Shown in pieces: positions 6,601 to 58,360 of a stretch of 64,000 nt of DNA (position 1 is the stretch's first letter; every line of letters starts with the position of its first letter). Under the pieces are notes generated by a model that worked only from the letters and a program-made list of their open reading frames with translations, was not told where the DNA came from and searched no databases. The position numbers were made by a program, and so were the translations under genes. Source of the stretch: an uncultured Bacilli bacterium (GTDB taxonomy: Bacteria; Bacillota_I; Bacilli_A; RF39; UBA660); the NCBI GenBank assembly GCA_944350495.1, contig CALVOZ010000002.1:222193-286192 (forward strand), written 5' to 3'.

Positions 6601-7034
6601 AAATAATTTTATTAGAAGATGTACGTAAACAAGGAAAAAAAGGAGATATTTTGGAAGTTAAAGATGGGTATGGAACGTTTTTAATTAAGAATAAACAAGC
6701 CGTAGTAGCATCACAAGGGAATTTAACTCATTTAGAAAAAGAAAATGCTGCTAAAGCTGCTTCTTTAGCTCAAGATATTAAAGATGCAGAAAATTTAAAA
6801 AATAAATTAGAAAAACTTGAATTAACTTTTAAAGTTAAAACAGGTGAAGGTGATAAAGTATTTGGTAGTATTAGTCCAAAGCAAATTGCTGAGAAATTAA
6901 AAGAAAACGGTTATACAATTGATAAGAAGCAAGTAAAGACAACAACTACTTTATCTTGCTTAGGCTATCATAATGTTGATATTGAGTTACATAAAAAAGT
7001 AACAGCAACAATTAAAGTATTATTAAATAAATAA
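6597..7034 (+). CDS. rplI: 50S ribosomal protein L9
   Basis: MKIILLEDVRKQGKKGDILEVKDGY N-terminus. The ATGA overlaps the upstream gene. Confidence 0.96.
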   Translation: MKIILLEDVRKQGKKGDILEVKDGYGTFLIKNKQAVVASQGNLTHLEKENAAKAASLAQDIKDAENLKNKLEKLELTFKVKTGEGDKVFGSISPKQIAEKLKENGYTIDKKQVKTTTTLSCLGYHNVDIELHKKVTATIKVLLNK

Positions 7035-7048
7035 AGGCGGTGAGCTTT

Positions 7049-8392
7049 ATGCCAGAAAGAACAATACCTCATAATATTGATGCAGAACAGTCAGTTATTG
7101 GTTCTATGTTCTTAACTAAAAAAGCATTGCAAAAATCATTAGAAATGTTAATGCCAGATGATTTTTATTTAGATTCACACAACAAAATCTTTAGTTGCAT
7201 TAAAAATATTGATGAGCAAAAAAGACCAGTTGATTTAACAACTGTTGCAGAAGAGTTAAATGTTAGAGGTTGGCTAAAACAAATTGGTGATGTTGACTAT
7301 TTAGCTGAAGTTATTAATAGCGTACCGACAACTGCAAATATTGATGAATATATTAAAATAGTTTCAGAAAAATCTTTACTTAGAAAACTGATTGATGAAG
7401 CTACTTCAATTGTTCAAGAAAGTTATAAAGTTGGAGGAAATATTAGTGATTTCTTATATACATCACAAAAGAAGATAGCTGATGTATCACAAGGATTGAG
7501 AAGTGTTGAATTTAAGCCAATTCAAGCTGTATTGACTAAAACTCAATCAGATTTAGAAGCTTTAGCATCTAAAAAAGGTGAAATAACAGGTATTCCAACA
7601 GGATTTTATGATTTGGATAAAATTACATCAGGATTTCATCCACATGAATTAATAATTATTGCTGCTCGCCCTGGTATGGGAAAAACTGCTATTGCTCTTA
7701 ATATTGTTACTAATATGGCTATAAATGCTAAAAAAACAGTAGCTTTATTTAATATGGAAATGGGTGCAGAACAATTAGTAACAAGAATGCTTTCATCAGT
7801 TGGTCAAATTGATGGCGGTAAGTTAAAGACAGGAAATTTAGAACATAATGATTGGAAAAGAATTAATGAGGCAATCAGTAGATTATCAAATACTAAAATT
7901 TTTATAGATGATACGGCCGGGCAAACAGTAGCCGACATTCGTTCTAAATGCCGTCGTTTAAAGAGCTCTGCGAGCGGATTAGATATAGTTATAATTGATT
8001 ATTTAACACTTATTCAAAGCGCTAATAGAGGCGGTGCAACAGGTCAAAATAGGCAACAAGAGGTAGCAGATATTTCTAGAGCATTAAAAACTATGGCTAT
8101 GGAATTAGATGTCCCTATTATAGCTCTTTCACAACTATCACGTGGTATTGAACAACGTACCGATAAAAAACCGATGTTAAGTGACTTAAGAGAATCTGGA
8201 GCTATAGAGCAAGATGCCGATATTGTTGCATTTTTACACTGTTCTGATGAAGAAAAAGAAAAAGAAGATAGTTTAATGGAATTTGTTATTAGAAAACATC
8301 GTAACGGTCCATTAATGGATATTCCACTTATTTTTAAACGAGCAACAAGTTCGTTTGTTAATGTTGCTACGAGTGGTGTATCTGAGGAATAA
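7049..8392 (+). CDS. dnaB: Replicative DNA helicase
   Basis: IPHNIDAEQSVIGSM N-terminus, Walker A ARPGMGKT and SQLSRGIEQR. The ATG at 7049, 8 nt after AAGGCGG, is preferred over the GTG at 7040 in the ORF track. Confidence 0.95.
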   Translation: MPERTIPHNIDAEQSVIGSMFLTKKALQKSLEMLMPDDFYLDSHNKIFSCIKNIDEQKRPVDLTTVAEELNVRGWLKQIGDVDYLAEVINSVPTTANIDEYIKIVSEKSLLRKLIDEATSIVQESYKVGGNISDFLYTSQKKIADVSQGLRSVEFKPIQAVLTKTQSDLEALASKKGEITGIPTGFYDLDKITSGFHPHELIIIAARPGMGKTAIALNIVTNMAINAKKTVALFNMEMGAEQLVTRMLSSVGQIDGGKLKTGNLEHNDWKRINEAISRLSNTKIFIDDTAGQTVADIRSKCRRLKSSASGLDIVIIDYLTLIQSANRGGATGQNRQQEVADISRALKTMAMELDVPIIALSQLSRGIEQRTDKKPMLSDLRESGAIEQDADIVAFLHCSDEEKEKEDSLMEFVIRKHRNGPLMDIPLIFKRATSSFVNVATSGVSEE

Positions 8393-11607: not shown

Positions 11608-11634
11608 AATAAAGTTAAAAACTTTATTTTTTTG
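11608..11634 (+). terminator. Intrinsic terminator after rlmH
   Basis: AATAAAGTT / AACTTTATT stem with a 3-nt loop, then a T-run. Confidence 0.55.
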
Positions 11635-11676
11635 TATAGATTAAAAAAAACTAATCATAATAGATTAGGTGATAAA

Positions 11677-12183
11677 ATGAAAAAGATGTTATTAATAATT
11701 ACAATTATATTAGTTTATGTAGGATTTGGTTATGTTGCTGAAAAGAAAAATATTATTCCTAAAGAAGCAATTAGAATAAGAATATTAGCTAATAGTAATT
11801 CTAATTATGATCAAAAACAAAAAATTATAGTTAAAGAAGAGCTAGAAAAATATTTGTATGATTTAATGAGTAATGCTGAAAATATTGAACAAGCAGATAT
11901 TGCTATTAGAAATAATATGAATAGTTTAAAAAATTTAGTATCATCTATTTTTGATGGTGAATTTAAAATAAATTATGGAATGAATTATTTCCCGTCTAAA
12001 GAGTATAAAGGTATTACCTACGATGAAGGTTATTATAAATCATTAGTTGTTAGTTTAGGTAACGGATTAGGAGATAATTGGTGGTGTATATTATTTCCTC
12101 CTCTTTGCATGCTTGATGGAACAGAATTAGATGAGATTGAATATCGTTCAATAGTTAAAGATATTGTTGATAAGTATTTTTGA
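11677..12183 (+). CDS. spoIIR: Stage II sporulation protein R
   Basis: Signal/TM N-terminus, IRIRILANSNSNYDQKQK and GDNWWCILFPPLC motifs. The ATG at 11677 after AGGTGA is preferred to the track start at 11632. Confidence 0.85.
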   Translation: MKKMLLIITIILVYVGFGYVAEKKNIIPKEAIRIRILANSNSNYDQKQKIIVKEELEKYLYDLMSNAENIEQADIAIRNNMNSLKNLVSSIFDGEFKINYGMNYFPSKEYKGITYDEGYYKSLVVSLGNGLGDNWWCILFPPLCMLDGTELDEIEYRSIVKDIVDKYF

Positions 12184-13140: not shown

Positions 13141-13181
13141 CACATCTAGGTATTCAACATATAGTAGTATTGGAGGTAAAT

Positions 13182-14435
13182 ATGAAGAGGATTAAAATAG
13201 AAGGTGGTCATAAACTTACTGGTAGTATTAAAATAAGTGGCGCTAAGAATAGTGCTGTAGCGCTTATTCCTGCCTCAATATTATCTGATGGCGAAGTTAC
13301 TATCGATAATATTCCAAATATATCAGATATAGACTCTTTAAATGAAATATTAGAGTATTTAGGAGCTAAAGTAGCAAAAGATGGATTGGTAATGAAGATA
13401 GACTCTTCTAGTATTGTTAATAAAGAGATACCAGAAGATATTTCAAAAAAATTACGTGCTTCATATTATTTTATGTCATCATTACTTGGAAAATATAAAA
13501 AGGTAGAGATGTATTTTCCAGGTGGATGTTCAATTGGCGCAAGACCAATTGATCAAACTTTAAAAGGATATCGTGCGTTAGGTGCGACGGTCATTGAAGA
13601 AGGAAATAAATATACTGTGTTTGCAGATGAATTAAAAGGTGCGGAAGTCTATTTGGATATGCCAAGTGTAGGTGCGACAGTAAATACAATTTTAGTTGCT
13701 GTTAGAGCTAAAGGTGTTACCACAATTGAAAATGCTGCTAAAGAACCAGAAATAGTAAATGTAGCAACATTCTTAAACAATATGGGTGCTAAAATAGTTG
13801 GAGCAGGAACAAGTACAATTAAAATAACTGGTGTTGACCATTTAGGTGGATGTTATACGGAGGTTATTCCAGATAGAATTGAAACAGGAACTTATATTAT
13901 AGCAGGGGCTCTATGTGGTGATAAATTAAGAGTAGAAAACATTATTCCTGAACATGTTGACGCATTAATTAATAAATTAAAAGAGATGGGTGTTTCCATA
14001 AAAGAAGAAAGTGATGCAGTGGAAATAACTGCCACTGATAATATTAAAAGGGTAAATATAAAAACATTGGGATATCCTGGATTTCCAACCGATTTACAAC
14101 AACCAATTACACCATTATTAACACAATGTAATGGTAAATCAATATTAGAGGAAACAATTTATGAAAATAGATTCCAAAATGTGCCATATTTAAATGATAT
14201 GGGCGCTAATATTGAAATTGATCAAAGAAAAATATATATTAATGGACCTACAAAATTAGTTGGAAAAGAAGTAACTGCAACCGATTTAAGAGCTGGTGCA
14301 TGTCTTGTTCTTGCAGGTTTAAAGGCAGATGGTATTACAACTATTGATAATGTTGAACATATTTTGAGAGGATATGAAAATATTATTGGTAAATTAAGTA
14401 ATGTAGGTGCTAAAATCGAATTAGATGAAATATAA
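13182..14435 (+). CDS. murA: UDP-N-acetylglucosamine 1-carboxyvinyltransferase
   Basis: KISGAKNSAVALIPA and the catalytic-loop context GGCSIGARPID. The ATG lies 6 nt after GGAGG. The track start at 13170 sits inside the RBS. Confidence 0.95.
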   Translation: MKRIKIEGGHKLTGSIKISGAKNSAVALIPASILSDGEVTIDNIPNISDIDSLNEILEYLGAKVAKDGLVMKIDSSSIVNKEIPEDISKKLRASYYFMSSLLGKYKKVEMYFPGGCSIGARPIDQTLKGYRALGATVIEEGNKYTVFADELKGAEVYLDMPSVGATVNTILVAVRAKGVTTIENAAKEPEIVNVATFLNNMGAKIVGAGTSTIKITGVDHLGGCYTEVIPDRIETGTYIIAGALCGDKLRVENIIPEHVDALINKLKEMGVSIKEESDAVEITATDNIKRVNIKTLGYPGFPTDLQQPITPLLTQCNGKSILEETIYENRFQNVPYLNDMGANIEIDQRKIYINGPTKLVGKEVTATDLRAGACLVLAGLKADGITTIDNVEHILRGYENIIGKLSNVGAKIELDEI

Positions 14436-15600: not shown

Positions 15601-15654
15601 TGGTGGTATCAAATTACTATGACTAAATTTGTCATGGCGGAAGGAGAGAAAAGA

Positions 15655-17341: not shown

Positions 17342-17367
17342 TAATCATTAATTACTATTTTTTTTTA
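17333..17367. terminator. Bidirectional terminator between convergent genes
   Basis: AATAGTAAT / ATTACTATT stem flanked by an A-run and a T-run. It overlaps both stop codons. Confidence 0.6.
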
Positions 17368-18007
17368 ATTTTTTTAATTTTTTTTTAAGTCTTTTAATAA
17401 TAATTTTTCTTCCTTTTTTACTATATATAAATATTATAAGTAAAATAATTATAAAAATTATGACTAAATATTGATTATACTCTTTATTATGTACTTCATT
17501 GTTTGGTGTTTTTATTTGATTATCTTCAACTGAAGTAGAATTTAATGACCAGATTCCAATTTTCTTTTTTTTAACTTTATCTTGAATTTTTTCTAACTGT
17601 GATGTGTATTTATAATCATTATATAGATAGGCTACTTCGGCATATCCCACTTCAATTAATTCTTCTTGCAACAACTTACCATCGGTAAATATCCAAACTA
17701 AGTATCGACCATATTTGTCAGTTTTATCACTGTTATCATCGAATTCTAAAATAATTTCTTTGGCTTGTTTTAATTTATTGCATGTAAAATCACTAGCTTC
17801 TTTTCCATATTCTTCTTCCTTAATGGTAGGATGTACAGATTCTGGAGTATCAATTGCTAAAAAACGTGCAGTTATTTCTTCATTATTATAAATAAACCTT
17901 GCAGTGTCACCGTCAACACATTTACTAAACTTTACTTTAATGCTTTCGGCTGAAACATAATTAATATTTAAAAAAAATAAAAAAAGAATTAAAAGCATTT
18001 TTTTCAT
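17348..18007 (-). CDS. Secreted/membrane-anchored thermonuclease (SNase family)
   Basis: Signal peptide MKKMLLILFLFFLNINYVSA, CVDGDTARF...ARFLAIDTPE and GRYLVWIF motifs, a C-terminal TM (YLVIIFIIILLIIFIY) and a lysine-rich tail. Confidence 0.88.
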   Translation of the reverse strand: MKKMLLILFLFFLNINYVSAESIKVKFSKCVDGDTARFIYNNEEITARFLAIDTPESVHPTIKEEEYGKEASDFTCNKLKQAKEIILEFDDNSDKTDKYGRYLVWIFTDGKLLQEELIEVGYAEVAYLYNDYKYTSQLEKIQDKVKKKKIGIWSLNSTSVEDNQIKTPNNEVHNKEYNQYLVIIFIIILLIIFIYSKKGRKIIIKRLKKKLKKLKKNSN

Positions 18008-18121: not shown

Positions 18122-21100
18122 ATGAATTTAACAGTAGAAATAATAAATGGAATTAAAGATCTTATTAATGCAAATGATTCACTAGATGATGAAAGCAAAA
18201 AATTTTATTTGGGACAGCTTGATAGTGGAGATAATACAAATGTTTTGAATTCTGTGGAAAGATTTATAATATCTATTTCTAATTCTCCGGTGATAAAAAA
18301 AATATGGTCTAATCATAATATTATTGATATTATATTTATATGTGTTCATGATAAAGAAGACGAATATAGTGTGAAAAAGAGTTTAGTGTTTCAAAATTTA
18401 GGTTCACAAATTGATTTAAATGAATTCTTTTCTAATGATTATGTAATTGAAAAAATAAGGAAAGAAGGAATAACTGACTTCAATAAAATATTTAATGGAT
18501 TTTTAGATTTCTTTCCAGAACCTTTAAAAAGTGAATTTGTTGAACAACACATAAATGAAGCTGGAAAGTCGTTACGCGAATTAAGTAGATTACCGGAATC
18601 ATATTTTAAAAGAGAACTTAGCAAGCAAGAAACTTTTAATGCCATTTTTGAAGAGTTAAAAAAAGATGTTTACTGTTTTGAAATCAATGAAACAAATGAA
18701 AGAATAATTTGGAATACTTATAAAGAGAAAATAAGTGAAATGTCACTTAGTTATAAACTTCGCTTCTTTCAAAAAGTAGAAAATAAAGAATTAAAGCAAG
18801 AAATATTTTCATATTTATCGTTAAATAATGAAATAGAAAATGTCGATGACTATACAGCTAGAATATTAGTTAAATACATCTCTCAAGAAGATATATATAA
18901 TTTATTTTTAAAGTGTACTAAAGAGTCAGAATATGACAAATATTTAGGTAGTATGGATTCTGAACATCAACTAAAAGCTTTAAAATTTTTGATTAGTAAG
19001 AAAATTAATGTATTTAAACCTGTTGTTTTTAGTGCGCTAAATACAAATGTTAAAGAAAGACTGATTGAACTAAATCCTGGTTTTGCTAGTATTGAACAAC
19101 TTTATGAATTATATAAAGACACAAAAGATGTTAAATTTATGCAACAAATTAAAGAAAAGTTAATGGAAGAAGATCAAATTTTGGTATCACAAGTTTTATT
19201 TGAAGATGATTTTATTCGCTTTTGCTCTCCTCAAGAATTAGATGTATTTATAAGTAAAATTAATGGGCTTAAATTTTTGAATTTTCCAGAAGATAATTTA
19301 ATTAATTATAATGATGCTTTTTTAAAAAAGTATATTGAACAAATAGTTAACTTTTGTCAAAATAATCCCAATGAATTAATTATTGTTCATTTTGATAAAT
19401 ATAAAAAATATTTTACAGATGCCCAACAGGATATAATAATTAATAATATTAAATTGGATAATTGGTTAAGCGAAGTTTTAAATAATTCGGAAATTTTTAA
19501 CTTTTTTGTTTCATTGTTAAAGAAAAAGCCAGAAATTCTTAATAAATTTGATTTAAAGGGTATATCTTTATCTATATCTATTAAAGATGAGTTAGTTAAT
19601 CGTATAGATGAATTATTAATTTATTTTAGTGAAGATAATTTGGAGCTTTTTTATTCAGATGAAGTATTAGCAGCAAATGAGAAATTAAGAAATAAATTTT
19701 TAGAAAGTGCTAAAAATAATCCAAATTTAATTAATAGTAAACAAAAGTTTAGATTGTTTAGTATTGAAGAACGTAGAAAGTTAATTATGACTTTACCAGT
19801 AAAAATAATTTTAAGTCTTTTAAATGATAATAATCCAGAATTTGATTATATCGCTATTGTAAGTAAGAGACTCAAAGATATTATTGATTACTTTAATGAT
19901 CAAAATTTATATCACATTAACAATTTGATAAGTGACGTATATATTCGGTTAACAAGTGAAGAACAAGAATATTTTGTTAATCATTTAACAAATTTAAATG
20001 TATTAGATGCCTTATTTAAATTTTTATCACATGAAGAAAAGCAAGTGGAAAAGGAATTTGTTTTATCTCGCATCATTAGTACAAATCGTGCTAATATGAT
20101 GAAATATATTTATAATAAATCACAAGATTATTTTAGAACTAATAGTAATAGGCTTGATATTAAAGAATATAGGAATGAAGATTTGCAAATGTTAATTGAT
20201 AAGGCTGATATTACAATGCTTATGTATATATTAACTTATTATAATAGTGATGCCATTATAAAAAGAATAGTAGAACTTACCCGTGAGAATTATAAAAATT
20301 TATTAAATCCTGAAATACTATCAATTTTGACAAATTCGTTAGCAAAATTCCCTGATCAATTAAAAAGAGAAATGGAACAACGATATGAGCAAATAGTTAA
20401 TGAAAATGAATTATATTTAAGTGTTGTAAAGCCTAAGGCTAAAAATTTATCTCTACTTGAAAATTTAAAGTTTATGTACTTGTTTGAAAACAATCAATTA
20501 ATAGGCTTTAAATTAGAAATGTTTAAAAAATTATTAAATAAAAATCCATTTGTTTTAACAACGTTAAATCCTATTTTGTTTGAAGATAATATTGCTTTAA
20601 TGGATGAACATTTTATAGATAAAACATCTAAGTATGAAATTTTACAATTACAGTTAGAAATGATAGTGAAATCTAATACAGGATTATCATCATTTTTAAA
20701 AAAAGCTTCTGATTATTTATTGAAAAATGAACACTATGAAGCCGTATATGATAAAAAAATATCTATGTTAATTACCTATTTAGCTAATGATAAAAGTAAA
20801 CTAAAAGATTATGACTTTACTCAATTAGATAATTTAGAAGATTTAATTAATTATATTTTACATGATTATACAAATACTGAGTCTGTCTATATTTATGGTA
20901 AACCTGATGAATACTTTGATTACAAGCGAATCGAGGAAACAAATAATTTTGCAATATACGATTTTACTAATCAAAGAATTAGTAAATGTGACGAATTATT
21001 CTATGCTTCAAAAGATTTAAATGAAATGAAGAATATGTACTTTAATAAATTTTTATCAATATCTTTATATGATGCTGTTAAGTTTAAAAAAAAGTATATG

Positions 21101-22312
21101 GTTCATTATGATAAAGTAAAAGAATATTCTACAAGTGATGCTCCTTTAACTTTTTTAGAAATTATAGATACAGTTCTTAGTATAGATGATCCAAGATTGA
21201 TGAAAGAAATATATGAAAAATCTACTAAAAGATATTCTTTAGGAGACTATTTGACAATAGAGTCAATAATTCAAGATAGTTATACTAGTGAGATTGCAAA
21301 ATCATACATCGGTAGACAAAAAGGCAATTTAGTTTCTAAAACATATAAAGACAAAGAAGGAAACGATGTTAATATAGAATTAACTGAATTATTTAATGAC
21401 TTTGGAATACTAGTTCATAGTACTTGTGCTTATGGTGAAATGCCATTGTTAGATAATGATTATTTTATTTCATGGAACAATAATCCTAATACAACTAATC
21501 ATGGTATTTGTTGTTCTTATATTACTAATTCTAGTTATGGAACAGCTAGTGTAAAAGGTAATGGAGTTATGTTTGGCTTTTTAAATATTAATTCACATTC
21601 TATAGCTACATATTCCCCATACGATTTAGCAACTGTTAATAATGGATATAACATTACTAGTCAATATGTGCCACATTATGTAACATTAGAAGATATGCCT
21701 AATTTTACACGACATACTCATAATGAAGTAGATTTGGAGCGTAGAAATGATACTTTAGAGAATAGATTTAATTGTATTCAACCTGATTGCATTATTATTT
21801 TAGAAGAAATGTCAGATGAAATTAAAGCAAATAGTCTTAAAGCTTATGAAGATTTTAAAAAACATGGAGTGGATTTAAAACTTTTCTATTTTGATAGAAC
21901 AAAAAATTCTCTAAATGAAGCTGAAAAGATAAAGACAATGATGATGGAATATTATGGTACTTATGATTTTAATAAATTAGCAGAATTAATTAACATCTAT
22001 GAATCTAATTTATGTAGTTGTACTTTTATAGATGGTATAGATAAAGATGAAACATTTATGACTTTATCTATGGAAAAATTATTGGCTGATACTATAAGTT
22101 TTATTGCTTCAACCCCTATTCGAACTGATAGAATAAAATTAGCACAAAGCTTAGAGGAAGTATTAGATAGAGAACAATATAAATTTAATTTATTAAATGA
22201 TCGAAATAAAAAAAGAGCTCGAAAATTCGAATTATATACTCCGGTGATTAGAGAACAAATAAGAATGTTAAAAGGCGAAGGAACTAATTTAGAGAGCAGA
22301 AAGGTAATGTAA
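18122..22312 (+). CDS. Giant hypothetical protein: about 1090 aa of helical repeats plus a Cys/His-rich C-terminal globular domain
   Basis: Uninterrupted 4.19-kb ORF in about 25-30% GC DNA. It has no signal peptide, TM or Walker A. A [KN]NP[ENG] motif recurs. The C-terminal domain is FGILVHSTCAYGEMPLLDNDYF...NHGICCSYI...HNEVDLERR. Confidence 0.85.
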   Translation: MNLTVEIINGIKDLINANDSLDDESKKFYLGQLDSGDNTNVLNSVERFIISISNSPVIKKIWSNHNIIDIIFICVHDKEDEYSVKKSLVFQNLGSQIDLNEFFSNDYVIEKIRKEGITDFNKIFNGFLDFFPEPLKSEFVEQHINEAGKSLRELSRLPESYFKRELSKQETFNAIFEELKKDVYCFEINETNERIIWNTYKEKISEMSLSYKLRFFQKVENKELKQEIFSYLSLNNEIENVDDYTARILVKYISQEDIYNLFLKCTKESEYDKYLGSMDSEHQLKALKFLISKKINVFKPVVFSALNTNVKERLIELNPGFASIEQLYELYKDTKDVKFMQQIKEKLMEEDQILVSQVLFEDDFIRFCSPQELDVFISKINGLKFLNFPEDNLINYNDAFLKKYIEQIVNFCQNNPNELIIVHFDKYKKYFTDAQQDIIINNIKLDNWLSEVLNNSEIFNFFVSLLKKKPEILNKFDLKGISLSISIKDELVNRIDELLIYFSEDNLELFYSDEVLAANEKLRNKFLESAKNNPNLINSKQKFRLFSIEERRKLIMTLPVKIILSLLNDNNPEFDYIAIVSKRLKDIIDYFNDQNLYHINNLISDVYIRLTSEEQEYFVNHLTNLNVLDALFKFLSHEEKQVEKEFVLSRIISTNRANMMKYIYNKSQDYFRTNSNRLDIKEYRNEDLQMLIDKADITMLMYILTYYNSDAIIKRIVELTRENYKNLLNPEILSILTNSLAKFPDQLKREMEQRYEQIVNENELYLSVVKPKAKNLSLLENLKFMYLFENNQLIGFKLEMFKKLLNKNPFVLTTLNPILFEDNIALMDEHFIDKTSKYEILQLQLEMIVKSNTGLSSFLKKASDYLLKNEHYEAVYDKKISMLITYLANDKSKLKDYDFTQLDNLEDLINYILHDYTNTESVYIYGKPDEYFDYKRIEETNNFAIYDFTNQRISKCDELFYASKDLNEMKNMYFNKFLSISLYDAVKFKKKYMVHYDKVKEYSTSDAPLTFLEIIDTVLSIDDPRLMKEIYEKSTKRYSLGDYLTIESIIQDSYTSEIAKSYIGRQKGNLVSKTYKDKEGNDVNIELTELFNDFGILVHSTCAYGEMPLLDNDYFISWNNNPNTTNHGICCSYITNSSYGTASVKGNGVMFGFLNINSHSIATYSPYDLATVNNGYNITSQYVPHYVTLEDMPNFTRHTHNEVDLERRNDTLENRFNCIQPDCIIILEEMSDEIKANSLKAYEDFKKHGVDLKLFYFDRTKNSLNEAEKIKTMMMEYYGTYDFNKLAELINIYESNLCSCTFIDGIDKDETFMTLSMEKLLADTISFIASTPIRTDRIKLAQSLEEVLDREQYKFNLLNDRNKKRARKFELYTPVIREQIRMLKGEGTNLESRKVM

Positions 22313-22313
22313 T

Positions 22314-22709
22314 ATGAATCAAAAAGATGAATTAAATGAAAGATTAAAAGAAACAACAGTATTTTTAAATGATATAATGAATCAACTTGTTACTTGTAAT
22401 TTTATATTTATTTATGATAATAAAGTTATCTTAAAAAATATTGATAGGTCATTTCCAACTATTAATATATTAAAAAAAGATTTACATGAAGATATAATTA
22501 CAGCAAAAATTAATAAAGAGTTAAATGTTCCAATTTCCAAAGTAAATATATTACCTTTTGAAACTACTAATGACTCTGATATTAGGATATATAAAATAGA
22601 GATATCCCCAAATGACTTTATAAATATAAATGATAAATATAAATTTTATTTAATAGATTCCATTGATAATGAATATGTCTTAAACATTTTAGAAAATTTA
22701 TTTAAGTAA
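22314..22709 (+). CDS. Hypothetical 131-aa protein translationally coupled to the giant ORF
   Basis: Its ATG starts 1 nt after the upstream TAA. It is soluble, has one Cys and no His, and shows no recognisable motif. Confidence 0.6.
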   Translation: MNQKDELNERLKETTVFLNDIMNQLVTCNFIFIYDNKVILKNIDRSFPTINILKKDLHEDIITAKINKELNVPISKVNILPFETTNDSDIRIYKIEISPNDFININDKYKFYLIDSIDNEYVLNILENLFK

Positions 22710-22771: not shown

Positions 22772-22800
22772 CACGAAGTGAAAAAAAGGAGTAGTTGTTT

Positions 22801-24609
22801 ATGAATAAAAGAAATATTGCGATTATAGCCCATGTTGACCATGGTAAAACAACTTTAGTAGATAAACTTTTACAATCATCAGGAACTTTTAGAGATAATG
22901 AAGTAGTTCAAGAACGTGCAATGGATTCTAACGACATTGAAAGGGAAAGAGGAATTACAATTTTAGCTAAAACGACTGCTATTAATTATAAAGGATATCG
23001 TATTAATATTCTTGATACTCCAGGACATGCTGATTTTGGCGGCGAAGTGGAAAGAATTATGAATATGGTTGATGGTGTAATTCTTGTTGTTGATGCTTAT
23101 GAAGGAACAATGCCTCAAACCAGATTTGTATTGAAGAAAGCGATGGAAGCAGGAGTAAAACCTATTGTTCTAGTAAATAAGATTGACAAACCATCTGCAA
23201 GACCTAAAGAAGTAGTCGATGAAGTTATGGATTTATTTATTGAATTAGGTGCTGACATTGAAGATTTAGATTTCCCTGTTGCGTATTGTTCAGCTCTTAA
23301 TAATACATCTTCTTTAAGTGCTGATATAAGTACACAAGAAGATGGTATGCAAAAGATTCTTGATATGATTATTGAGTATATTCCAGAACCAAATGTTAGT
23401 TTAGAAGGTTCTTTACAATTCCAACCCGCATTATTAGATTATAATGACTTTGTAGGACGTATTGGAATTGGTTTAATTAAAAGAGGAAAAGTTCATATTA
23501 ATGAAATGGTTAGCTGTGTAAGATTAGATGGTACTATTAAGCAATTTAGAGTTGCAAAACTATATGGCTTTTTAGGTCTTAAGAGAGTTGAAATAGAAGA
23601 AGCAAGCGCTGGCGATATCGTTGCTATGGCTGGATTACCTGATATTTCAGTTGGAGAAACTGTTTGTACAGTTAATCAGGAAGAAGCTTTACCAATTTTA
23701 CATATAGATGAACCTACATTACAAATGACATTTGGAGTTAATACAAGCCCATTTTGTGGTAAAGAGGGAAAAATAGTTACTGCAAGAAAAATTGAGGAAA
23801 GATTAATGAAAGAAACTGAAAAAGATGTTTCCTTAAAGGTTGAACCAAATGATTCAGAATCATTTATTGTATCTGGTCGTGGAGAACTTCATTTATCAAT
23901 ATTAATTGAGAATATGCGTCGTGAAGGTTTTGAATTACAAGTATCTAAACCTCAAATAATTTTAAAAGAGATTAATGGTGAAATATGTGAACCTTTTGAA
24001 GATGTTCAAATTGATGTACCAGACGAATATGTTGGATCTGTAATTGAAGCATTAGGAAATCGTGAAGGTGTTATGGAAAATATGATAACTCATGAAGGTC
24101 AAACTAAATTATTGTATGTTTTACCTACTAGAGGATTAATTGGATTTGCAACAGAATTTATGACTATGACTAAAGGCTATGGTATTATGAATCACACTTA
24201 TAAAGAATATCGTAAACAAGTAGGTTCAACTGTTGGGTCACGTAAAAATGGAGTATTAGTTTCAATGGAAAACGGAAAATCTACAGCTTATGCTTTAGGT
24301 GGACTAGAAGAACGCGGTGTCATGTTTATTGAACCTGGTGTCGATGTATATGAAGGAATGATTGTAGGTGAGAACAATCATGATAACGATTTAGCTGTAA
24401 ATGTTGTAAAAGGAAAAAATTTAACAAATACAAGAAGTGCTGGAAAAGATCACACTGTTGTTCTAAAAAGGCCTCGTTTAATGAGTCTAGAGACATGTTT
24501 AGACTACATTAATAAAGATGAATTAGTAGAAGTTACACCAATTAGTTTTAGGATGAGAAAGAAAATTTTAAATACAAATGAGAGAAAAAAAGTTGATAGT
24601 AAAAATTAA
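22801..24609 (+). CDS. typA: Translational GTPase TypA/BipA
   Basis: [31 protein letters not shown] and NKID motifs. The ATG at 22801 follows AAAGGAG. Confidence 0.96.
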
Positions 24610-24674
24610 TTGCTATCTTTTTTATTGAAAATTAAGAATATTTAAAAAAAATTAAAAAAATTTTAAAAAAAGTG

Positions 24675-24703
24675 TTGCATTATTAAAAAAATGTTGTTAT
24701 AAT
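24675..24703 (+). promoter_or_regulatory. Sigma-A promoter driving the structured RNA
   Basis: TTGCAT, a 17-nt spacer, then TATAAT, preceded by an A/T-tract UP-like region. Confidence 0.6.
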
Positions 24704-24709
24704 AAAATT

Positions 24710-25070
24710 ACTTAATAGAACAGTAGAGAGAAATCATATTACAAAACAAAAAATTTTTGTGGAGCATTTCAAATGCGATGAAGGAAAAGTTTGGAGTTAG
24801 TATATATGAATTTCTTAAAGATGATTAAAATAATATAAATTAATATTTATATTAATAATAAATCATTGTCTACTATTTTCATTAAATAATTAGTATATAA
24901 AAATATATTAATGTAATGAAAATTTAAAAGAACAACTCCAAAAGAGTCTTATCATCTATTAAGTATATAGCTATGTGGGGAAAGAAAACCCCTGATGAGC
25001 AATTCTATCTAGTGACTTGGTATAGAATTGGTTCTAAACTAGAACAACGATTAGTCAACGTTGTTTTTTT
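24710..25070 (+). ncRNA. Unclassified structured RNA of about 360 nt (stand-alone sRNA or cis-leader)
   Basis: Bounded by a consensus promoter and a terminator (AACAACG / CGTTGTT plus T5, 25043-25070). It contains at least 6 hairpins and a long-range helix (24790-98 with 24934-42). No convincing ORF or RBS is present. Confidence 0.5.
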
Positions 25071-25080
25071 GTTGTTTTTC

Positions 25081-25109
25081 TTTACAAAGAATTATGATTA
25101 TATTATAAT
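25081..25109 (+). promoter_or_regulatory. Candidate second sigma-A promoter, for the 657-aa ORF
   Basis: TTTACA, a 17-nt spacer, then TATAAT, located between the RNA terminator and the RBS AAGAGGTG. Confidence 0.45.
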
Positions 25110-25132
25110 AAACGCCAAAAGAGGTGTTGTTT

Positions 25133-27106
25133 ATGGATGAACCAAGTAGAATGATGATAGCTAGTGACTTACTTGATGAAGCTTATGAATTGACTCAAGA
25201 TTATGAAGGTATAGAAAAAATTAATATTATATATAAGTTTTTAATTGGAGCTAAAAGCGACGTTTCAGGTCTTAATGAATCGATATGTTCAAGTCATGTA
25301 ATTAGTCAAGAACTGTTAAATGTTTATAAAAGAGATGCAATGGTTGTGTTATTTGCAAATGGTTATGAATATTTAAGATATCTTGATAAAGAAAATGAAA
25401 TTTACGACGAAGAACGCCAACTATTAAATGATTTAGACAAATTATCGTTTACATTTACACATTTATTTGACTATTTTACTTCTCCAAAAAATTACGATAA
25501 AGTTATACGGCTTTTAGTAAGACATTATGAATACATATCGAAAAGTAATAAAATTATAAATGAATGTCAAGATTACAGTTTTGACAATCAAACACCATTT
25601 AGAAACGCTATTGTTGATTATTTATCTAACGTTGAAGCATTAGATTTTGTTTGCATGTTGTTTGATGAGCTAGATGAAAAATATCAAGGCCAAATAAATT
25701 TTGTAGTTTCTGGCGAAGAAGAAGTTGATGATGATGAAAAAATAATGTTAGAAGAGGAATGGGACGAAGAAGAGTTTGTTGAGGAAGATTTTGATGAAGA
25801 AGCATACCAAGAATCTATTGATGAATTGTTTAATGATCATAGTGAAGCAGTTCATCAGATTTTATTGAACTTTCAAGTTGAGTTCCATGATAAATTGATG
25901 GACTGGTTGGAGAATTATTTTGGAGATAAGTTTGAAAGTGACAATTTTTTTGGTTTTTTAGCAAGTTATTTATATAAGTTTTTATTAGATACTAAAAAAA
26001 ATGGGAGATTGTTAGAAGAAGAAAAACAATTATTAGATTTATATGAAAGGCCAGATACGCAAGCTGATATATTAATTCAAAGTTTTTATGATAATCCAAA
26101 GTATGCTTTTGAAGCTATTGAGTCATTAAGTAGACATTATTATGATTATCATACTGATATCCTAACAATGCGTGATCGAGAAGAAGACGATTTTGTAGCG
26201 TCTAAAATTCGAATGTTAGATGAATATTATCCAACCAACAAATTAACTAGCAAAGTTATATTGCGTTCTACTGAGATTTATGAGATATGCGATATGATAT
26301 TTATGAAATATAAAATAGATTATCCAAACGATTACCTTGAAAGATTATATACGGTGCTGATTCAAAACTCAGATTTTGAGCCAATTTTTTATGAGTTAGA
26401 TATGGGTGAAGATGCTTTATATTGTCGGATTATTTTAATTAGATATTTTTGCCGAATATTTATTAGTTCTATTTCTATTGCTGATTTAAGTAGTATTACT
26501 TCCGATGAATACCCTGCTTTTGAACAAATTATGGGGCAAGAAGCAACTAATTATAACTTAGCTAAAATTTTTAGTAAATACGGGTTAGAGATTCTAAAAA
26601 GGTACGAATTAACTTTAAATTTAGAAATTAAGAATGAGAGAGAAAACATTAGAAAAAATAAAAAAAGCGGTGTTTTAAAAAGAATGTTTTTAATTGATCC
26701 TATGATTGTTGGCGATTCAACTTTCTATCGAGCACTAACTGATTCAAAAATATATCAATATATTGAGCAAAATGGTATAGCAAAAGCAAATTCATATTTG
26801 CATACTTTAGCTAAAGAAGATTATATTGAAGCACGGGATATGTTGAATGAAATATTGGTTTCAATATATATGAACGCAGAAAGTAAGCAAGAATTAAATG
26901 CAATAGAAAGAATGGTAATGTCCTCTTTTGATATGAAAAAAGATGATTTTGATTTTTTTATCAAAGCAGCACTAGATGATTTAGTTGTTTTATTACAATT
27001 ATTAGAACAATATTATGAAAATGAAAAAGACGAAGATTATCCATTAAAATTTGAAGAACGATTAGTTCAATTACCAAAGGTAAAAGAAAAATTATATCCT
27101 CTATAG
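25133..27106 (+). CDS. Hypothetical acidic helical protein with internal repeats
   Basis: 657 aa from the ATG at 25133. It has an acidic tract (EEEVDDDEKIMLEEEWDEEEFVEEDFDEE) and a repeated E-x-QLL...[NS]PK.Y...RHY.Y module. No TM is present and no family is recognised. Confidence 0.75.
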   Translation: MDEPSRMMIASDLLDEAYELTQDYEGIEKINIIYKFLIGAKSDVSGLNESICSSHVISQELLNVYKRDAMVVLFANGYEYLRYLDKENEIYDEERQLLNDLDKLSFTFTHLFDYFTSPKNYDKVIRLLVRHYEYISKSNKIINECQDYSFDNQTPFRNAIVDYLSNVEALDFVCMLFDELDEKYQGQINFVVSGEEEVDDDEKIMLEEEWDEEEFVEEDFDEEAYQESIDELFNDHSEAVHQILLNFQVEFHDKLMDWLENYFGDKFESDNFFGFLASYLYKFLLDTKKNGRLLEEEKQLLDLYERPDTQADILIQSFYDNPKYAFEAIESLSRHYYDYHTDILTMRDREEDDFVASKIRMLDEYYPTNKLTSKVILRSTEIYEICDMIFMKYKIDYPNDYLERLYTVLIQNSDFEPIFYELDMGEDALYCRIILIRYFCRIFISSISIADLSSITSDEYPAFEQIMGQEATNYNLAKIFSKYGLEILKRYELTLNLEIKNERENIRKNKKSGVLKRMFLIDPMIVGDSTFYRALTDSKIYQYIEQNGIAKANSYLHTLAKEDYIEARDMLNEILVSIYMNAESKQELNAIERMVMSSFDMKKDDFDFFIKAALDDLVVLLQLLEQYYENEKDEDYPLKFEERLVQLPKVKEKLYPL

Positions 27107-36278: not shown

Positions 36279-36412
36279 TTTGAATGTGTGGCATGCTAGG
36301 ATGTGTGAGGTTGCCGATACACCAGGTTAAGTTGATATGAAATTTAAATTGAAAATCGGGTTTTCACACGGAGCAAGTCTATACAGAGATATAGGCGAAG
36401 GGAGGACACAAA
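36279..36412 (+). promoter_or_regulatory. Structured 5' leader of the S10 operon
   Basis: About 130-nt untranslated leader with long-range GTGTGA/TCACAC pairing and a CTATA/TATAG hairpin next to the RBS GGGAGG. Any regulatory role is inferred. Confidence 0.35.
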
Positions 36413-52625: not shown

Positions 52626-52816
52626 TGTCTCAAACCAATACAAAATTGCTTGAATTAATAAATTTTTATAAAAACTTATTTCAAGCAAAAATTTGATAGT
52701 TTCGTACAAAAATTATTTAATGAATTTTTGAGATATGATATTATCTAAATTATCCGCAGGTCATAAGGCGGAGTAGTAGGAGTGATGTAGTATAGAGTAG
52801 AAGGGAGATGTTATTT

Positions 52817-53032
52817 GTGCTTACTGGTAAAGTAAAGTGGTTCAATAACGAAAAGGGATACGGCTTTATCGAATATAATGATATGGAAGATATTTTCGTA
52901 CATTATTCAACAATCTTGTCTGACGGCTATAAAACATTAGTTGAGGGTCAATATGTAACCTTTGAATTAGTAAGAACTGATAAAGGATTACAGGCCAAAA
53001 ATGTAGTAGAAAACAAAGCTGCGTTAGTATAA
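52817..53032 (+). CDS. Cold-shock protein (CspA family)
   Basis: [17 protein letters not shown] and VHYS RNP motifs. The GTG at 52817 lies 9 nt after AAGGGAG. The track ATG at 52808 abuts the RBS. Confidence 0.9.
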
Positions 53033-53046
53033 GCAGTTTTTATTTT
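53015..53046 (+). terminator. Putative terminator after csp
   Basis: AAAGCTGC / GCAGTTTT stem (one G-U pair), then a T-rich tract. Confidence 0.4.
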
Positions 53047-53133
53047 GCATAAAATAAGGTATTATTTTCAAAAAATCATTTGACAGTTAATTGATAATAT
53101 ATAAGGTTATGGTATAATTAAATAGAGGTAACT

Positions 53134-58329: not shown

Positions 58330-58360
58330 TTTAGTACATTAAAATGGATGGTGGTTGAAA

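What the first reader, a model, noticed from the sequence alone, without database searches (positions are those of the whole stretch)
24675..25070. Promoter-to-terminator structured RNA of about 360 nt that fits no class I can assign
A consensus promoter (TTGCAT-17-TATAAT, 24675-24703) leads about 360 nt later to a hairpin plus T5 terminator (25043-25070). No credible ORF lies between them. Visible structure includes the following elements.
- Hairpin GCATT/AATGC (24764-76).
- Long-range helix TTTGGAGTT (24790-98) with AACTCCAAA (24934-42), extended by GATGA/TCATC. It encloses two perfect AT-rich hairpins: TAATATAAAT/ATTTATATTA at 24841-64, and ATTTTCATT/AATGAAAAT at 24885-24923.
- Hairpin GGGG-N8-CCCC (24977-92).
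- A 9-bp hairpin CAATTCTAT/ATAGAATTG (25000-30).
- Hairpin GTTCTA-AAC-TAGAAC (25031-45), which shares 3 nt with the 5' arm of the terminator. The two are mutually exclusive, as in an attenuator.
UGCGAUGAAGGAAAAGU resembles the base of T-box stem I (glyQS UUGCGAUGAGAAGAAGAGUA). It also loosely resembles RNase P CR-I, but the defining cores of both are missing. A second good promoter (25081-25109) lies after the terminator. The RNA may therefore be a stand-alone sRNA rather than a leader of the 657-aa ORF.
Basis: seen in the sequence. Interest (0 to 1): 0.7.

Follow-up and report, generated by a model that had tools for sequence, protein, structure and literature searches.

The report
Orphan 360-nt structured RNA gene
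Between the typA gene and an unknown 657-aa gene lies a real, separately transcribed, roughly 360-nt folded RNA that matches no catalogued RNA family; its last 145 nt are strongly conserved, it occurs only in a narrow group of uncultured AT-rich spore-forming Firmicutes, and its function is unknown.

Summary
The stretch folds far better than shuffles (z = -5.05).

The same promoter-RNA-terminator module follows typA in seven further distinct metagenomic sequences. Three close relatives lack it through a clean indel and keep the downstream gene's own promoter. It is therefore a stand-alone RNA gene and not a leader.

Covariation supports a shared architecture:
- a 12-nt invariant 5' tail;
- a fast-evolving 5' domain, with a K-turn-like hairpin in the window's clade;
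- a long AT hairpin;
- a conserved 3' four-way-junction core (24929-25035);
- the terminator.

On an unfitted alignment, 26 pairs change on both sides, against 12.3 ± 2.2 in shuffles.

The proposed attenuator hairpin is weak and not conserved.

Two further contacts are inferred only: the 5' tail with an invariant 10-nt complement inside the core, and the P9 loop with the terminator loop.

Rfam gives nothing at curated thresholds. The only near-hit is the PGK motif (31.7 bits against a cut-off of 50.8), and the most divergent homolog loses it. T-box, RNase P and tmRNA are excluded.

Best reading: a new orphan structured RNA, probably a protein-binding stable RNA acting in trans.

The parts
24640..24703 (+). 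Promoter of the RNA. It consists of an A/T-rich UP-like tract (24640-24672), a -35 TTGCAT (24675-80), a 17-nt spacer, a TG extension (24695-96) and a -10 TATAAT (24698-24703).
   Evidence: Sequence. The arrangement is conserved in L001, L008, L010, L015 and L017, where the -35 is TTGCCA or TTGCAA and TGnTATAAT is kept. The scan did not list it because the window's -35 matches at only 3 of 6 positions.
24710..25070 (+). The RNA itself: 361 nt in the window and 344-378 nt in homologs. The start is inferred from the -10 box and the end from the terminator T-run.
   Evidence: MFE z = -5.05. Seven further distinct homologous sequences were found, five of them full-length. For the whole-RNA structure, 90.6% of cells are paired against about 45% in slid controls, and 26 pairs change on both sides against 12.3 ± 2.2 in shuffles. 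The ends are inferred; no expression data are available.
24710..24721 (+). 5' tail ACUUAAUAGAAC. The first 9 nt are invariant in all homologs. Nt 1-10 are the exact reverse complement of UCUAUUAAGU at 24955-24964.
   Evidence: invariance. The chance of a complement of at least 10 nt is about 0.004 in 5000 shuffles. The pairing itself is inferred and has no covariation, because both sides are invariant.
24722..24874 (+). Variable 5' domain. P2 (AGUAG 24722-26 with CUACU 24870-74) encloses a long irregular arm and a second AT-rich hairpin arm (24820-24867). The long arm consists of P3 (24728-34 with 24810-16) and P4 (24751-58 with 24785-92).
   Evidence: The same three-way topology comes out of independent folds of all six full-length sequences, including L017. 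P3, P4, UAC/GUA and AAC/GUU show compensatory changes (helices 2-4).
24761..24782 (+). K-turn-like element at the tip of the long arm: GGA, then the C-stem hairpin GCAUU-UCA-AAUGC (24764-76), then the bulge GAU and GAA.
   Evidence: By inspection it fits the K-turn consensus: GA 5' of the C-stem, a 3-nt bulge, then GA. GGAG and GAUGAA are invariant, and the C-stem covaries, in window, L001, L008, L010 and L006 (helix 4). The element is absent in L015, L016 and L017. Folding as a K-turn is inferred.
24876..24922 (+). P6, a long AT-rich hairpin: UUUUCAUU/AAUGAAAA, an internal loop, then AUUAGUAUAU/UAUAUUAAU.
   Evidence: Present in all homologs, with variable tip length and sequence (helices 7-8).
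24929..25035 (+). Conserved 3' core, a four-way junction. Its helices are P1b (AGAAC 24929-33 with GUUCU 25031-35), Pa (ACUC-CAAAA-GAGU, 24935-47), P7 (CUUAUC 24948-53 with GAUGAG 24994-99) and P9 (25000-25030). P7 holds an invariant 23-nt internal strand and hairpin P8 (GGGG-AAAGAAAA-CCCC, 24977-92).
   Evidence: Alignment A4. 99.1% of cells are paired, and 10 pairs change on both sides against 2.6 ± 1.1 in shuffles, 0 of 500. The MFE of the isolated domain reproduces the junction in window, L001 and L006. Nucleotide identity is 0.77-0.86, against 0.60-0.65 at typA third codon positions.
24955..24976 (+). Invariant internal strand UCUAUUAAGUAUAUAGCUAUGU. It contains the complement of the 5' tail and the palindrome UAUAGCUAUA. 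It can alternatively form a small hairpin, CUAU-UAAGUAU-AUAG.
   Evidence: The strand is invariant in all nine sequences except for one G/A change. No covariation is possible, so which pairing forms remains untested.
25041..25070 (+). Intrinsic terminator: AGAACAACG, loop AUUAGUCAA, CGUUGUUUU, ending in a T7 run. The loop AGUCA (25053-57) is complementary to the P9 loop UGACU (25013-17).
   Evidence: The stem is 100% paired with compensatory and G-U changes (helix 7). Stability is -7.3 to -12.5 kcal/mol. The loop cores GACU and AGUC(A) are invariant while neighbouring loop bases vary. The kissing contact is inferred.
25081..25109 (+). Separate promoter of the 657-aa ORF: TTTACA, a 17-nt spacer, TATAAT.
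   Evidence: It matches the consensus at 11 of 12 positions. It is conserved in all loci, including L018, L019 and L021, which lack the RNA.
25133..27106 (+). 657-aa orphan ORF downstream. It is not part of the RNA and is listed only as context.
   Evidence: No Pfam or NCBIfam family. Only 7 clusters in the protein collection. The model is all-alpha (pLDDT 72) and has no PDB match by sequence or fold.

Best explanation
This is an independent gene for a structured, non-coding, probably abundant and stable RNA of about 345-378 nt.

Transcription: it starts from its own extended -10 promoter with an upstream A/T tract and ends at its own intrinsic terminator.

Functional part: this is the conserved 3' core of 107 nt, a four-way junction of P1b, Pa, P7/P8 and P9. 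It carries invariant single-stranded segments: UCUAUUAAGUAUAUAGCUAUGU, the A-rich loops CAAAA and AAAGAAAA, and the P9 loop GACU.

Proposed compaction of the fold: I propose two long-range contacts. The invariant 5' tail would dock on its 10-nt complement inside the core. The P9 loop would kiss the terminator loop, which would make the terminator hairpin part of the mature RNA.

5' two-thirds: this part evolves fast in sequence but keeps its helices, like a structural scaffold. In the window's clade it also carries a K-turn-like element that could recruit an L7Ae-family protein.

Most likely mode of action: the RNA acts in trans as a protein-binding RNA or RNP scaffold. It does not regulate the adjacent gene in cis.

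Shown: conservation, selection on the core, the secondary structure, single copy, and independence from the neighbouring genes.

Inferred: the transcript ends, the two tertiary contacts, the K-turn, and the trans/protein-binding role.
For: - Structure: z = -5.05.
- Conservation: the module of promoter, RNA, terminator and separate ORF promoter is conserved in L001/L002/L005, L006, L008, L009, L010, L015, L016 and L017.
- Covariation: in the core, 10 pairs change on both sides against 2.6 ± 1.1 in shuffles, with 99.1% of cells paired. For the whole RNA on an unfitted MAFFT alignment, 26 pairs change on both sides against 12.3 ± 2.2, and 90.6% of cells are paired against about 45% when partners are slid.
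- Selection: the core is 77-86% identical, while typA third codon positions are 60-65% identical and the ORF protein is 26-47% identical.
- Strand: the many G-U pairs fit the + strand only. The covariance model scores 130-181 bits on the + strand and at most 17.6 bits on the - strand.
- Independence from the ORF: there is a conserved promoter between the terminator and the ORF. L017 has about 330 nt extra between them. L018, L019/L020 and L021 lack the RNA through a clean indel but keep the ORF and its promoter.
- Terminator: it is strong (-7.3 to -12.5 kcal/mol), while the only candidate competitor hairpin is worth 0 to -3.0 kcal/mol.
- 5' tail complement: P is about 0.004, and both sides are invariant.
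- Coding: no conserved ORF.
Against: - There are no expression data of any kind, so the ends, abundance and stability are inferred from sequence.
- Only eight distinct sequences are available, all from one narrow lineage. Covariation counts come from few independent events, and the structure was derived from the same sequences.
- The two proposed tertiary contacts and P7a involve invariant bases, so they cannot be tested by covariation.
- GUUCU has three possible partners: AGAAC/AGAAU (the choice made here), the 5' tail UAGAAC, and the downstream UAGAAC/UAGAGC. Alternative conformers are therefore possible.
- No partner protein is identified. The K-turn-like element is missing in L015, L016 and L017.
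- The presence/absence pattern on a typA tree is not monophyletic. The RNA is therefore dispensable or mobile within the group, or it sits elsewhere in those genomes.
- Read-through into the ORF cannot be excluded.
Confidence: 0.6

Rival explanations
1. Riboswitch or attenuator. The 3' four-way junction would be a ligand- or factor-binding aptamer, and the terminator its expression platform. When P1b is open, GUUCUA would pair with UAGAAC/UAGAGC (25031-45) and destabilise the terminator. Transcription would then read through into the 657-aa ORF and parAB.
For: - A conserved aptamer-sized junction lies directly 5' of a terminator and upstream of a co-oriented gene.
- GUUCUA is shared between P1b and a hairpin that overlaps 5 of the 9 terminator pairs.
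- The invariant junction strand and loops look like a binding pocket.
- The closest Rfam near-hit, PGK, is classed as cis-regulatory.
Against: - The competitor hairpin is worth only -3.0 kcal/mol, -1.6 in L015/L016, and does not form in L010 or L017. The terminators are worth -7.3 to -12.5 kcal/mol.
- A conserved near-consensus promoter sits between the terminator and the ORF.
- L017 has about 330 nt, including possible opposite-strand small ORFs, between the RNA and the ORF.
- Relatives express the ORF from the same promoter with no RNA upstream.
- The terminator loop is itself conserved and complementary to the P9 loop. That fits a structural role.
- A variable domain of about 220 nt 5' of an aptamer is atypical.
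Confidence: 0.15
2. Base-pairing regulatory sRNA. The invariant 5' tail ACUUAAUAG, or another invariant loop, would be a seed that pairs with target mRNAs. The internal complement UCUAUUAAGU would mask the seed.
For: - The 5' tail is invariant even in L017, where the rest of the 5' domain has only 53% identity.
- It has its own promoter and terminator and is single copy.
- L017 carries an extra local complement (UCCUAUUAA) to the tail.
Against: - At 345-378 nt with a conserved multi-helix core, it is much larger and more structured than typical seed-type sRNAs.
- No target could be searched for, because only fragments of the genomes are available.
- No conserved complementarity to the neighbouring ORF's ribosome-binding site was seen by inspection (window, L001).
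- The tail may be conserved simply because it is part of the fold.
Confidence: 0.12
3. Divergent, extended member of the Rfam PGK motif family (RF03040). The P7/P8 element would be homologous to PGK RNA, here embedded in a larger RNA.
For: - cmscan gives 31.7 bits, E = 0.078 (window), and 28.0 bits, E = 0.25 (L015).
- The P1 sequence CUUAUC/GAUAAG is identical.
- The 5' internal strand has the same 23-nt length.
- The 8-nt hairpin loop AAAGAAAA is identical (alignment).
Against: - Both scores are far below the curated cut-off of 50.8 bits.
- There is no hit at all in L017, the most divergent homolog, although its helices are kept.
- Only about 3 of the 9 strongly conserved internal-loop positions of the model match (alignment).
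- The model's second hairpin is aligned to the wrong bases of P9.
- The context differs: there is no pgk gene downstream, and the element lies inside a terminated RNA.
- AT-rich sequences make short matches easy.
Confidence: 0.1
4. A highly divergent housekeeping RNA of similar size, such as RNase P RNA, tmRNA, SRP RNA or 6S RNA.
For: The size of about 360 nt, the strong promoter, the possible pairing of the 5' end with the 3' region, and the GGAAAAGU string in the window that recalls CR-I.
Against: - No Rfam hit to any of these families, even at E<=10.
- ARAGORN finds no tmRNA.
- GGAAAAGU is not conserved in homologs.
- There is no ACAGAA..GGCUUA and no tag reading frame.
- Close relatives lack the gene at this locus. 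That would be unexpected for an essential RNA, unless it has moved.
Confidence: 0.03

Closest known systems
PGK RNA motif (Rfam RF03040, a cis-regulatory candidate of unknown function)
   Same: It has a 6-bp closing helix CUUAUC/GAUAAG, a 23-nt 5' internal strand, a short G/C hairpin with the loop AAAGAAAA, and a following hairpin (alignment).
   Different: - The score is 31.7 or 28.0 bits against the 50.8 cut-off, and L017 gives no hit.
- Most conserved internal-loop bases differ.
- Here the element is one arm of a four-way junction inside a 360-nt RNA that is terminated and separately promoted.
- It is not upstream of pgk. The pgk association is taken from the family name and my recollection, and was not verified.
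Large orphan structured ncRNAs of Firmicutes (OLE, raiA motif, ROOL, GOLLD)
   Same: They are long, multi-helix, stand-alone RNAs with their own promoter and terminator, strongly conserved unpaired segments, and unknown or only partly known function. The features of those classes are from general knowledge.
   Different: - There is no match to any of their Rfam models.
- This RNA is smaller, and only its 3' 145 nt are strongly conserved.
- It is known from a single narrow lineage and eight distinct sequences, and it is absent at this locus from some close relatives.
SAM-I (S-box) riboswitch and T-box leaders
   Same: They share a K-turn-type GAUGA element, a four-way junction (SAM-I), a CUUAUC...GAUAAG helix like a typical S-box P1, and a following intrinsic terminator. 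The features of these classes are from general knowledge.
   Different: - No Rfam hit.
- None of the conserved cores is present: no T-box 14-mer, no specifier loop and no SAM-I GC-rich core.
- The K-turn-like motif is in the variable 5' domain and not in the junction.
- There is no credible antiterminator.
- The downstream gene has its own promoter.
RNase P RNA and tmRNA
   Same: Similar length, and possible pairing of the 5' end with the 3' region.
   Different: No CR-I/CR-V or P4, no tRNA-like end, no tag ORF, and no hits from Rfam or ARAGORN.

Membership tests
PGK RNA motif (RF03040) | Covariance-model score at or above the curated gathering score (50.8 bits). | tested here: not met
   31.7 bits (window), 28.0 bits (L015) and no hit at E<=10 in L017. 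No hit in gathering mode.
PGK RNA motif (RF03040) | The model's secondary structure: a 6-bp P1, a 23-nt internal strand, a hairpin with an 8-nt A-rich loop, and a second hairpin. | tested here: inconclusive
   P1, the strand length and the loop AAAGAAAA match (alignment). Most conserved internal-loop bases do not match, and the second hairpin is mis-registered relative to the covarying P9.
PGK RNA motif (RF03040) | Position in the 5' UTR of the gene it is named after. The family is typed Cis-reg. The pgk association is from the name and my recollection only. | tested here: not met
   The downstream gene is an orphan 657-aa ORF with its own promoter. No pgk was found among the window ORFs scanned. 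The ribosomal operon ORFs were not scanned.
T-box leader (RF00230) | Stem I with a specifier loop, the conserved T-box sequence with a UGGN bulge in an antiterminator, and a downstream aminoacyl-tRNA synthetase or amino-acid gene. | tested here: not met
   No T-box hit at E<=10. The GAUGA string belongs to a K-turn-like hairpin that is absent in L015-L017. No conserved antiterminator. The downstream gene is an orphan.
Bacterial RNase P RNA (RF00010/RF00011) | CR-I GAGGAAAGUCC and CR-V ACAGAA..GGCUUA forming P4. | tested here: not met
   No hit at E<=10. The window's GGAAAAGU is replaced by UAUUUAU in homologs.
tmRNA | A tRNA-like domain formed by the two ends, plus a tag reading frame. | tested here: not met
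   ARAGORN found no tRNA or tmRNA in the 64-kb window. No Rfam hit.
Transcription-terminating riboswitch or attenuator (generic) | Conserved, energetically competitive, mutually exclusive antiterminator and terminator, with the regulated gene transcribed only through the element. | tested here: not met
   The competitor hairpin is worth 0 to -3.0 kcal/mol against terminators of -7.3 to -12.5 kcal/mol. The ORF has an independent conserved promoter. RNA-less relatives exist.
Stand-alone bacterial ncRNA gene | Its own promoter and intrinsic terminator conserved together with the RNA, no conserved ORF, and structure supported by covariation. | tested here: met
   promoter and terminator conserved; no conserved ORF; covariation.
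Stand-alone bacterial ncRNA gene | A discrete transcript of the predicted size is detected. | not testable with these tools
Kink-turn (K-turn) motif | A C-stem, a 3-nt bulge, tandem sheared G-A pairs (GA after the bulge, and GA 5' of the C-stem on the other strand), then the NC stem. | tested here: inconclusive
   The sequence pattern UGGA-[GCAUU..AAUGC]-GAU-GA-A fits. It is invariant and its C-stem covaries in 5 of 8 sequences. It is absent in L015, L016 and L017. Actual kinking or protein binding cannot be tested here.

The most novel reading that the evidence does not exclude
This may be the first example of a new class of large, compactly folded bacterial RNA: a four-way-junction core locked by a 5'-tail pseudoknot and a kiss between the P9 loop and the terminator loop. 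Like OLE, raiA, ROOL or GOLLD, such an RNA would do something beyond base-pairing regulation. It might form an RNP, bind a ligand, or self-assemble through its invariant palindrome UAUAGCUAUA.
Probability: 0.15. Interest if true: 0.8.

Novelty: new variant of a known kind. Interest (0 to 1): 0.55.

Why it matters
Long bacterial RNAs with complex, conserved folds and no known function are rare. They have repeatedly turned out to be ribozymes, riboswitches or unusual RNPs.

This one is well defined. It has clear ends, a covariation-supported four-way-junction core under stronger constraint than the neighbouring protein genes, and testable tertiary contacts. It also has a natural presence/absence polymorphism among close relatives, which could be used to infer what it does.

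Its impact is limited by the very narrow known distribution, the uncultured hosts and the lack of any functional clue.

Tried and rejected
- Rfam at curated thresholds over the whole window gave only the S10 and L31 leaders.
- The permissive Rfam search gave only the sub-threshold PGK hit. The other weak hits to eukaryotic snoRNA/miRNA and bacterial sRNA families were treated as noise.
- tRNA/tmRNA scan: none found.
- Exact 21-mer core search (GTGGGGAAAGAAAACCCCTGA) in GTDB genomes and JGI metagenomes gave only chance matches inside coding sequences, in a Dorea MAG and in viral-like polymerase genes. The 21-mer later proved not to be invariant: L015/L016 and L017 differ. Absence from those collections is therefore not shown.
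- Viral contigs, phage records and plasmids gave no real match. A looser P7/P8 pattern in viral contigs gave only coding-sequence chance hits.
The homologous positions (UUUAGAGUU / AUCCUCAAA) do not pair.
- Attenuator model: see the first rival explanation.
- Small-protein gene rejected. The M-W-G-K-K-T-P-D frame and the 11-codon M-E-L-I-I-S-D-E frame are each absent or broken in L015/L016 and have no Shine-Dalgarno sequence.
- ORF657 as a recognisable RNA-binding partner: no family, no PDB sequence match and no fold match.
- Literature search for the PGK motif found no text.
- Naming the organism failed. The only label seen is 'Bacilli bacterium', on an 84%-identical TypA.
Full report
**What is in the window**

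The region lies in a 28% G+C genome. It sits between typA/bipA (22795-24609) and a 657-aa ORF (25133-27106) that has no Pfam or NCBIfam family. That ORF is followed by parA, parB, mscS, abgT and ychF.

Elsewhere the window encodes SpoIIR, a MurA-type EPSP-synthase-family enzyme, WhiA, DnaB and the S10-spc-alpha ribosomal operons. The host is therefore an AT-rich, spore-forming Firmicute and not a mollicute. The only taxon label I could obtain is 'Bacilli bacterium', on an 84%-identical TypA.

**Checking the observation**

Folded from 24710 to 25072, the RNA has an MFE of -80.1 kcal/mol. One hundred dinucleotide-preserving shuffles give -56.0 ± 4.8, so z = -5.05.

The promoter is not strictly 'consensus'.
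- The -35 TTGCAT matches TTGACA at 3 of 6 positions, so the simple scan skipped it.
- The -10 is a perfect TATAAT with a TG extension, and an A/T tract lies upstream.

The scan also skipped the terminator, because its loop is 9 nt. The second promoter (25081-25109) matches at 11 of 12 positions.

**Known families**

- Rfam 15 at curated thresholds finds only an L31 leader (15617-46) and an S10 leader (36290-398) in the window.
- A permissive search of 24550-25200 finds no T-box, RNase P, tmRNA, SRP, 6S or riboswitch family.
- Its only notable hit is the PGK motif (RF03040) at 24941-25020: 31.7 bits against a gathering score of 50.8, E = 0.078.
- ARAGORN finds no tRNA or tmRNA.

**Homologs**

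The downstream ORF has only seven clusters of relatives in the 5.8-billion-protein collection. Their contigs, and contigs carrying close TypA homologs, gave the comparison set.

The RNA is present directly downstream of typA in the following loci.
- L001/L002/L005, which are identical.
- L006, which is cut at its 5' end.
- L008.
- L009, which holds the 3' part only.
- L010.
- L015 and L016, which differ from each other at 5 positions.
- L017.

Together with the window these make eight distinct sequences, six of them full-length.

In all of them the -35/-10 boxes, the first bases ACUUAAUAG, the terminator and the ORF's own promoter are conserved.

Three other close relatives have typA followed within about 65 nt by the ORF homolog: L018, L019/L020 and L021, whose TypA is 86-89% identical to the window's. 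Alignment shows a clean indel. In these loci the typA terminator abuts the same CTTTAC...TATTATAAT ORF promoter that follows the RNA's terminator in the window.

In L017 an extra stretch of about 330 nt separates the RNA terminator from the ORF promoter.

Together these facts show that the RNA is its own transcription unit and that the ORF does not depend on it.

On a TypA neighbour-joining tree the RNA-bearing genomes are not monophyletic. The tree rests on a single protein and is weakly resolved. Loss, relocation or transfer has probably occurred.

**Selection**

Between the window and L001, L015 and L017, typA third codon positions are 60-65% identical, which is essentially saturated. The ORF protein is 26-47% identical across L008, L010, L015 and L017. 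The last 145 nt of the RNA are 77-86% identical, and the 5' part is 53-76% identical.

No reading frame on either strand is conserved across the set.

**Secondary structure**

For the 3' 145 nt (alignment A4, nine sequences) I wrote down a four-way junction plus terminator.
- P1b: AGAAC/AGAAU with GUUCU.
- Pa: ACUC or UCCU with GAGU or AGGA, loop CAAAA.
- P7: CUUAUC with GAUGAG/GAUAAG. P7 encloses a 23-nt strand and hairpin P8 (GGGG-AAAGAAAA-CCCC, which is GAAG...CUUC in L017).
- P9: 7-10 bp, with UCC/GGA, UUC/GAA and UUU/AAA variants.
- The junction strands are 0-1 nt long.

Counts for this structure:

| Measure | Observed | Control |
|---|---|---|
| Cells paired | 99.1% | 37-53% when partners are slid |
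| Pairs changed on both sides | 10 | 2.6 ± 1.1 in shuffles (0 of 500 reach 10) |

MFE folding of the isolated domain returns the same junction for window, L001 and L006.

For the whole RNA I transferred a structure from L008 onto the unfitted MAFFT alignment A3.
- Cells paired: 90.6%, against about 45% when slid.
- Pairs changed on both sides: 26, against 12.3 ± 2.2 (0 of 500).

The 5' domain keeps the same topology in every full-length sequence, including L017. A closing helix P2 encloses a long irregular arm and a second hairpin, and the long AT hairpin P6 follows. This holds even though L017's sequence there is near-neutral in divergence.

Caveats: the set holds only eight sequences, they are related by descent, and the structure was derived from them.

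- Supported: the GCAUU/AAUGC hairpin (in the window's clade), both AT-rich hairpins, GGGG/CCCC, the 9-bp P9 hairpin and the terminator.
- Not supported: the 9-bp long-range helix. The homologous bases UUUAGAGUU / AUCCUCAAA do not pair.
- Not supported: the GUUCUA-AAC-UAGAAC 'attenuator' hairpin. It is worth -3.0 kcal/mol at best and does not form in L010 or L017. The terminators are worth -7.3 to -12.5 kcal/mol.
- GUUCU is better explained as the 3' strand of P1b. The L017 changes (AUUCC with GGAAU) and the window's C-G in place of U-G are compensatory there.
- The 5' tail UAGAAC is also complementary to GUUCUA, and L017 has one compensatory change there (GGAU/AUUC). An alternative closing helix cannot be excluded.

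**Source of the T-box and RNase P resemblance**

The string UGCGAUGAAGG belongs to UGGA-[GCAUU-UCA-AAUGC]-GAU-GA-A. Read by eye, this fits the K-turn consensus: GA 5' of the C-stem, a 3-nt bulge, GA, then a regular stem.

GGAG and GAUGAA are invariant, and the C-stem covaries, in window, L001, L008, L010 and L006. The motif is missing in L015, L016 and L017. The 'GGAAAAGU' that recalled RNase P CR-I is not conserved at all.

**Inferred tertiary contacts**

1. Nt 1-10 (ACUUAAUAGA) are the exact reverse complement of UCUAUUAAGU (24955-64), which lies in the invariant strand inside P7.
   - A match this long between the first 12 nt and the rest occurs in about 0.4% of shuffles.
   - Both segments are invariant in all homologs, apart from A10 to G in L017, which still allows a G-U pair.
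   - This pairing would be a pseudoknot. It excludes the small invariant hairpin CUAU-UAAGUAU-AUAG.
2. The P9 loop UGACU (25013-17) is complementary to the terminator loop AGUCA (25053-57).
   - The invariant loop bases are exactly GACU and AGUC(A).
   - In L017 the flanking pair moves to the other side, giving GACUA with UAGUC.
   - A conserved terminator loop suggests that the terminator hairpin is part of the mature fold.

Neither contact can be tested by covariation, because the bases do not vary.

**Copy number and wider searches**

A covariance model of the 3' domain (R1) finds one copy per RNA-bearing locus at 130-181 bits. Truncated copies in L003, L004 and L009 score less. It finds nothing else in the window or in the RNA-less loci. 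The best other score is 17.6 bits, on the opposite strand.

Searches of GTDB genomes and JGI metagenomes with a 21-nt core gave only chance hits within coding sequences. That 21-mer later proved variable (L015, L017), so these negatives say little. Viral contigs, phages and plasmids gave nothing.

**The PGK near-hit**

The model and the RNA share four features: the P1 sequence, the 23-nt internal-strand length, the AAAGAAAA loop and a following hairpin.

Against homology:
- The scores are 19-23 bits below the cut-off.
- L017 gives no hit although its helices are retained.
- Most of the model's conserved internal-loop bases differ.
- The genomic context differs.

I treat PGK as the closest catalogued relative or look-alike. 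I do not treat this RNA as a member of that family. I could not retrieve any description of the family.

**Interpretation**

The best-supported reading is a stand-alone, non-coding, structured RNA gene. Its conserved 3' four-way-junction core is the functional part. Its 5' two-thirds is a fast-evolving scaffold.

I think it most likely acts in trans as a protein-binding RNA or RNP component. The reasons are its size, the invariant unpaired strands and loops, the K-turn-like element, and the integration of the terminator into the fold. This step is inference.

| Rival | Confidence |
|---|---|
| Terminating riboswitch for the ORF-parAB genes | 0.15 |
| Seed-type sRNA using the invariant 5' tail | 0.12 |
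| Extended PGK-family member | 0.10 |
| Divergent housekeeping RNA | 0.03 |

The downstream ORF gives no clue. It is an all-alpha orphan (pLDDT 72) with no match by sequence or fold in the PDB.

**Verdict**

It is a new RNA family of a familiar general kind. It is notable for its size and well-supported fold, and limited by a narrow known distribution and no functional lead. Interest 0.55.

Noticed in passing
window 25133-27106 (homologs in L001, L006-L010, L015-L021): A 657-aa, acidic, all-alpha orphan protein always sits between typA and parA-parB. It has only 7 clusters in the 5.8-billion-protein collection and no Pfam, NCBIfam or PDB match by sequence or fold. It evolves very fast: 26-47% identity where TypA is 87-93% identical.
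   Followed up: partly
window 18122-22709: Two orphan ORFs (1396 aa and 131 aa, no Pfam or NCBIfam family) lie between the SNase-like nuclease gene (17348-18007, minus strand) and typA. In L001, L015 and L018 the nuclease gene directly precedes typA, so this 4.6-kb block looks like an insertion specific to the window's genome.
   Followed up: no
window 15617-15646 and 36290-36398: These are the only Rfam hits at curated thresholds: an L31-Firmicutes leader (33.7 bits) upstream of rpmE and an S10-Clostridia leader (41.7 bits) upstream of the S10 operon. The L31 leader is also present in L001 (1020-1049).
   Followed up: no
L001 5894-6004 / 6001-7872: The ORF657 homolog is split into a 36-aa piece and a 623-aa piece by a frameshift in an A/T run (ATATATAATTTTTGA). 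The same split occurs in several independent assemblies (L001-L005), so it may be real and not an assembly error.
   Followed up: no
L017 6241-6575: About 330 nt extra lie between the RNA terminator and the ORF promoter, with possible small hydrophobic ORFs on the opposite strand (48 and 69 codons). This may be a remnant or a small membrane-protein gene. The RNA terminator could then act in both directions.
   Followed up: partly
window 24757-24798; L008 1753-1788: A mini reading frame overlaps the K-turn-like hairpin: GUG/AUG-GAG...GAU-GAA..., 11-13 codons, for example MELIISDEIFI. It is kept in the window's clade but has no Shine-Dalgarno sequence and is absent in L015-L017. The sequence GGAGCUUAU occurs both here and at the start of P7, which hints at an internal duplication.
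   Followed up: partly
window 11632-12183, 13170-14435: SpoIIR and a MurA-type EPSP-synthase-family gene show that this 28% G+C genome belongs to a walled, spore-forming Firmicute. The only database label seen for a relative was 'Bacilli bacterium'.
   Followed up: no
window 52626-53133 and 57529-58354: These are long stretches of about 510 and 830 nt without an ORF of 90 aa or more, upstream of a GH25 lysozyme gene and downstream of secA. Rfam gave no hit at E<=1. They were not examined further.
   Followed up: no
L018, L019/L020, L021 (5810-5875): Close relatives (TypA 86-89% identical to the window's) lack the RNA at this site, while L017 (TypA 87% identical to the window's) has it. The presence/absence pattern does not follow the TypA tree.
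   Followed up: partly
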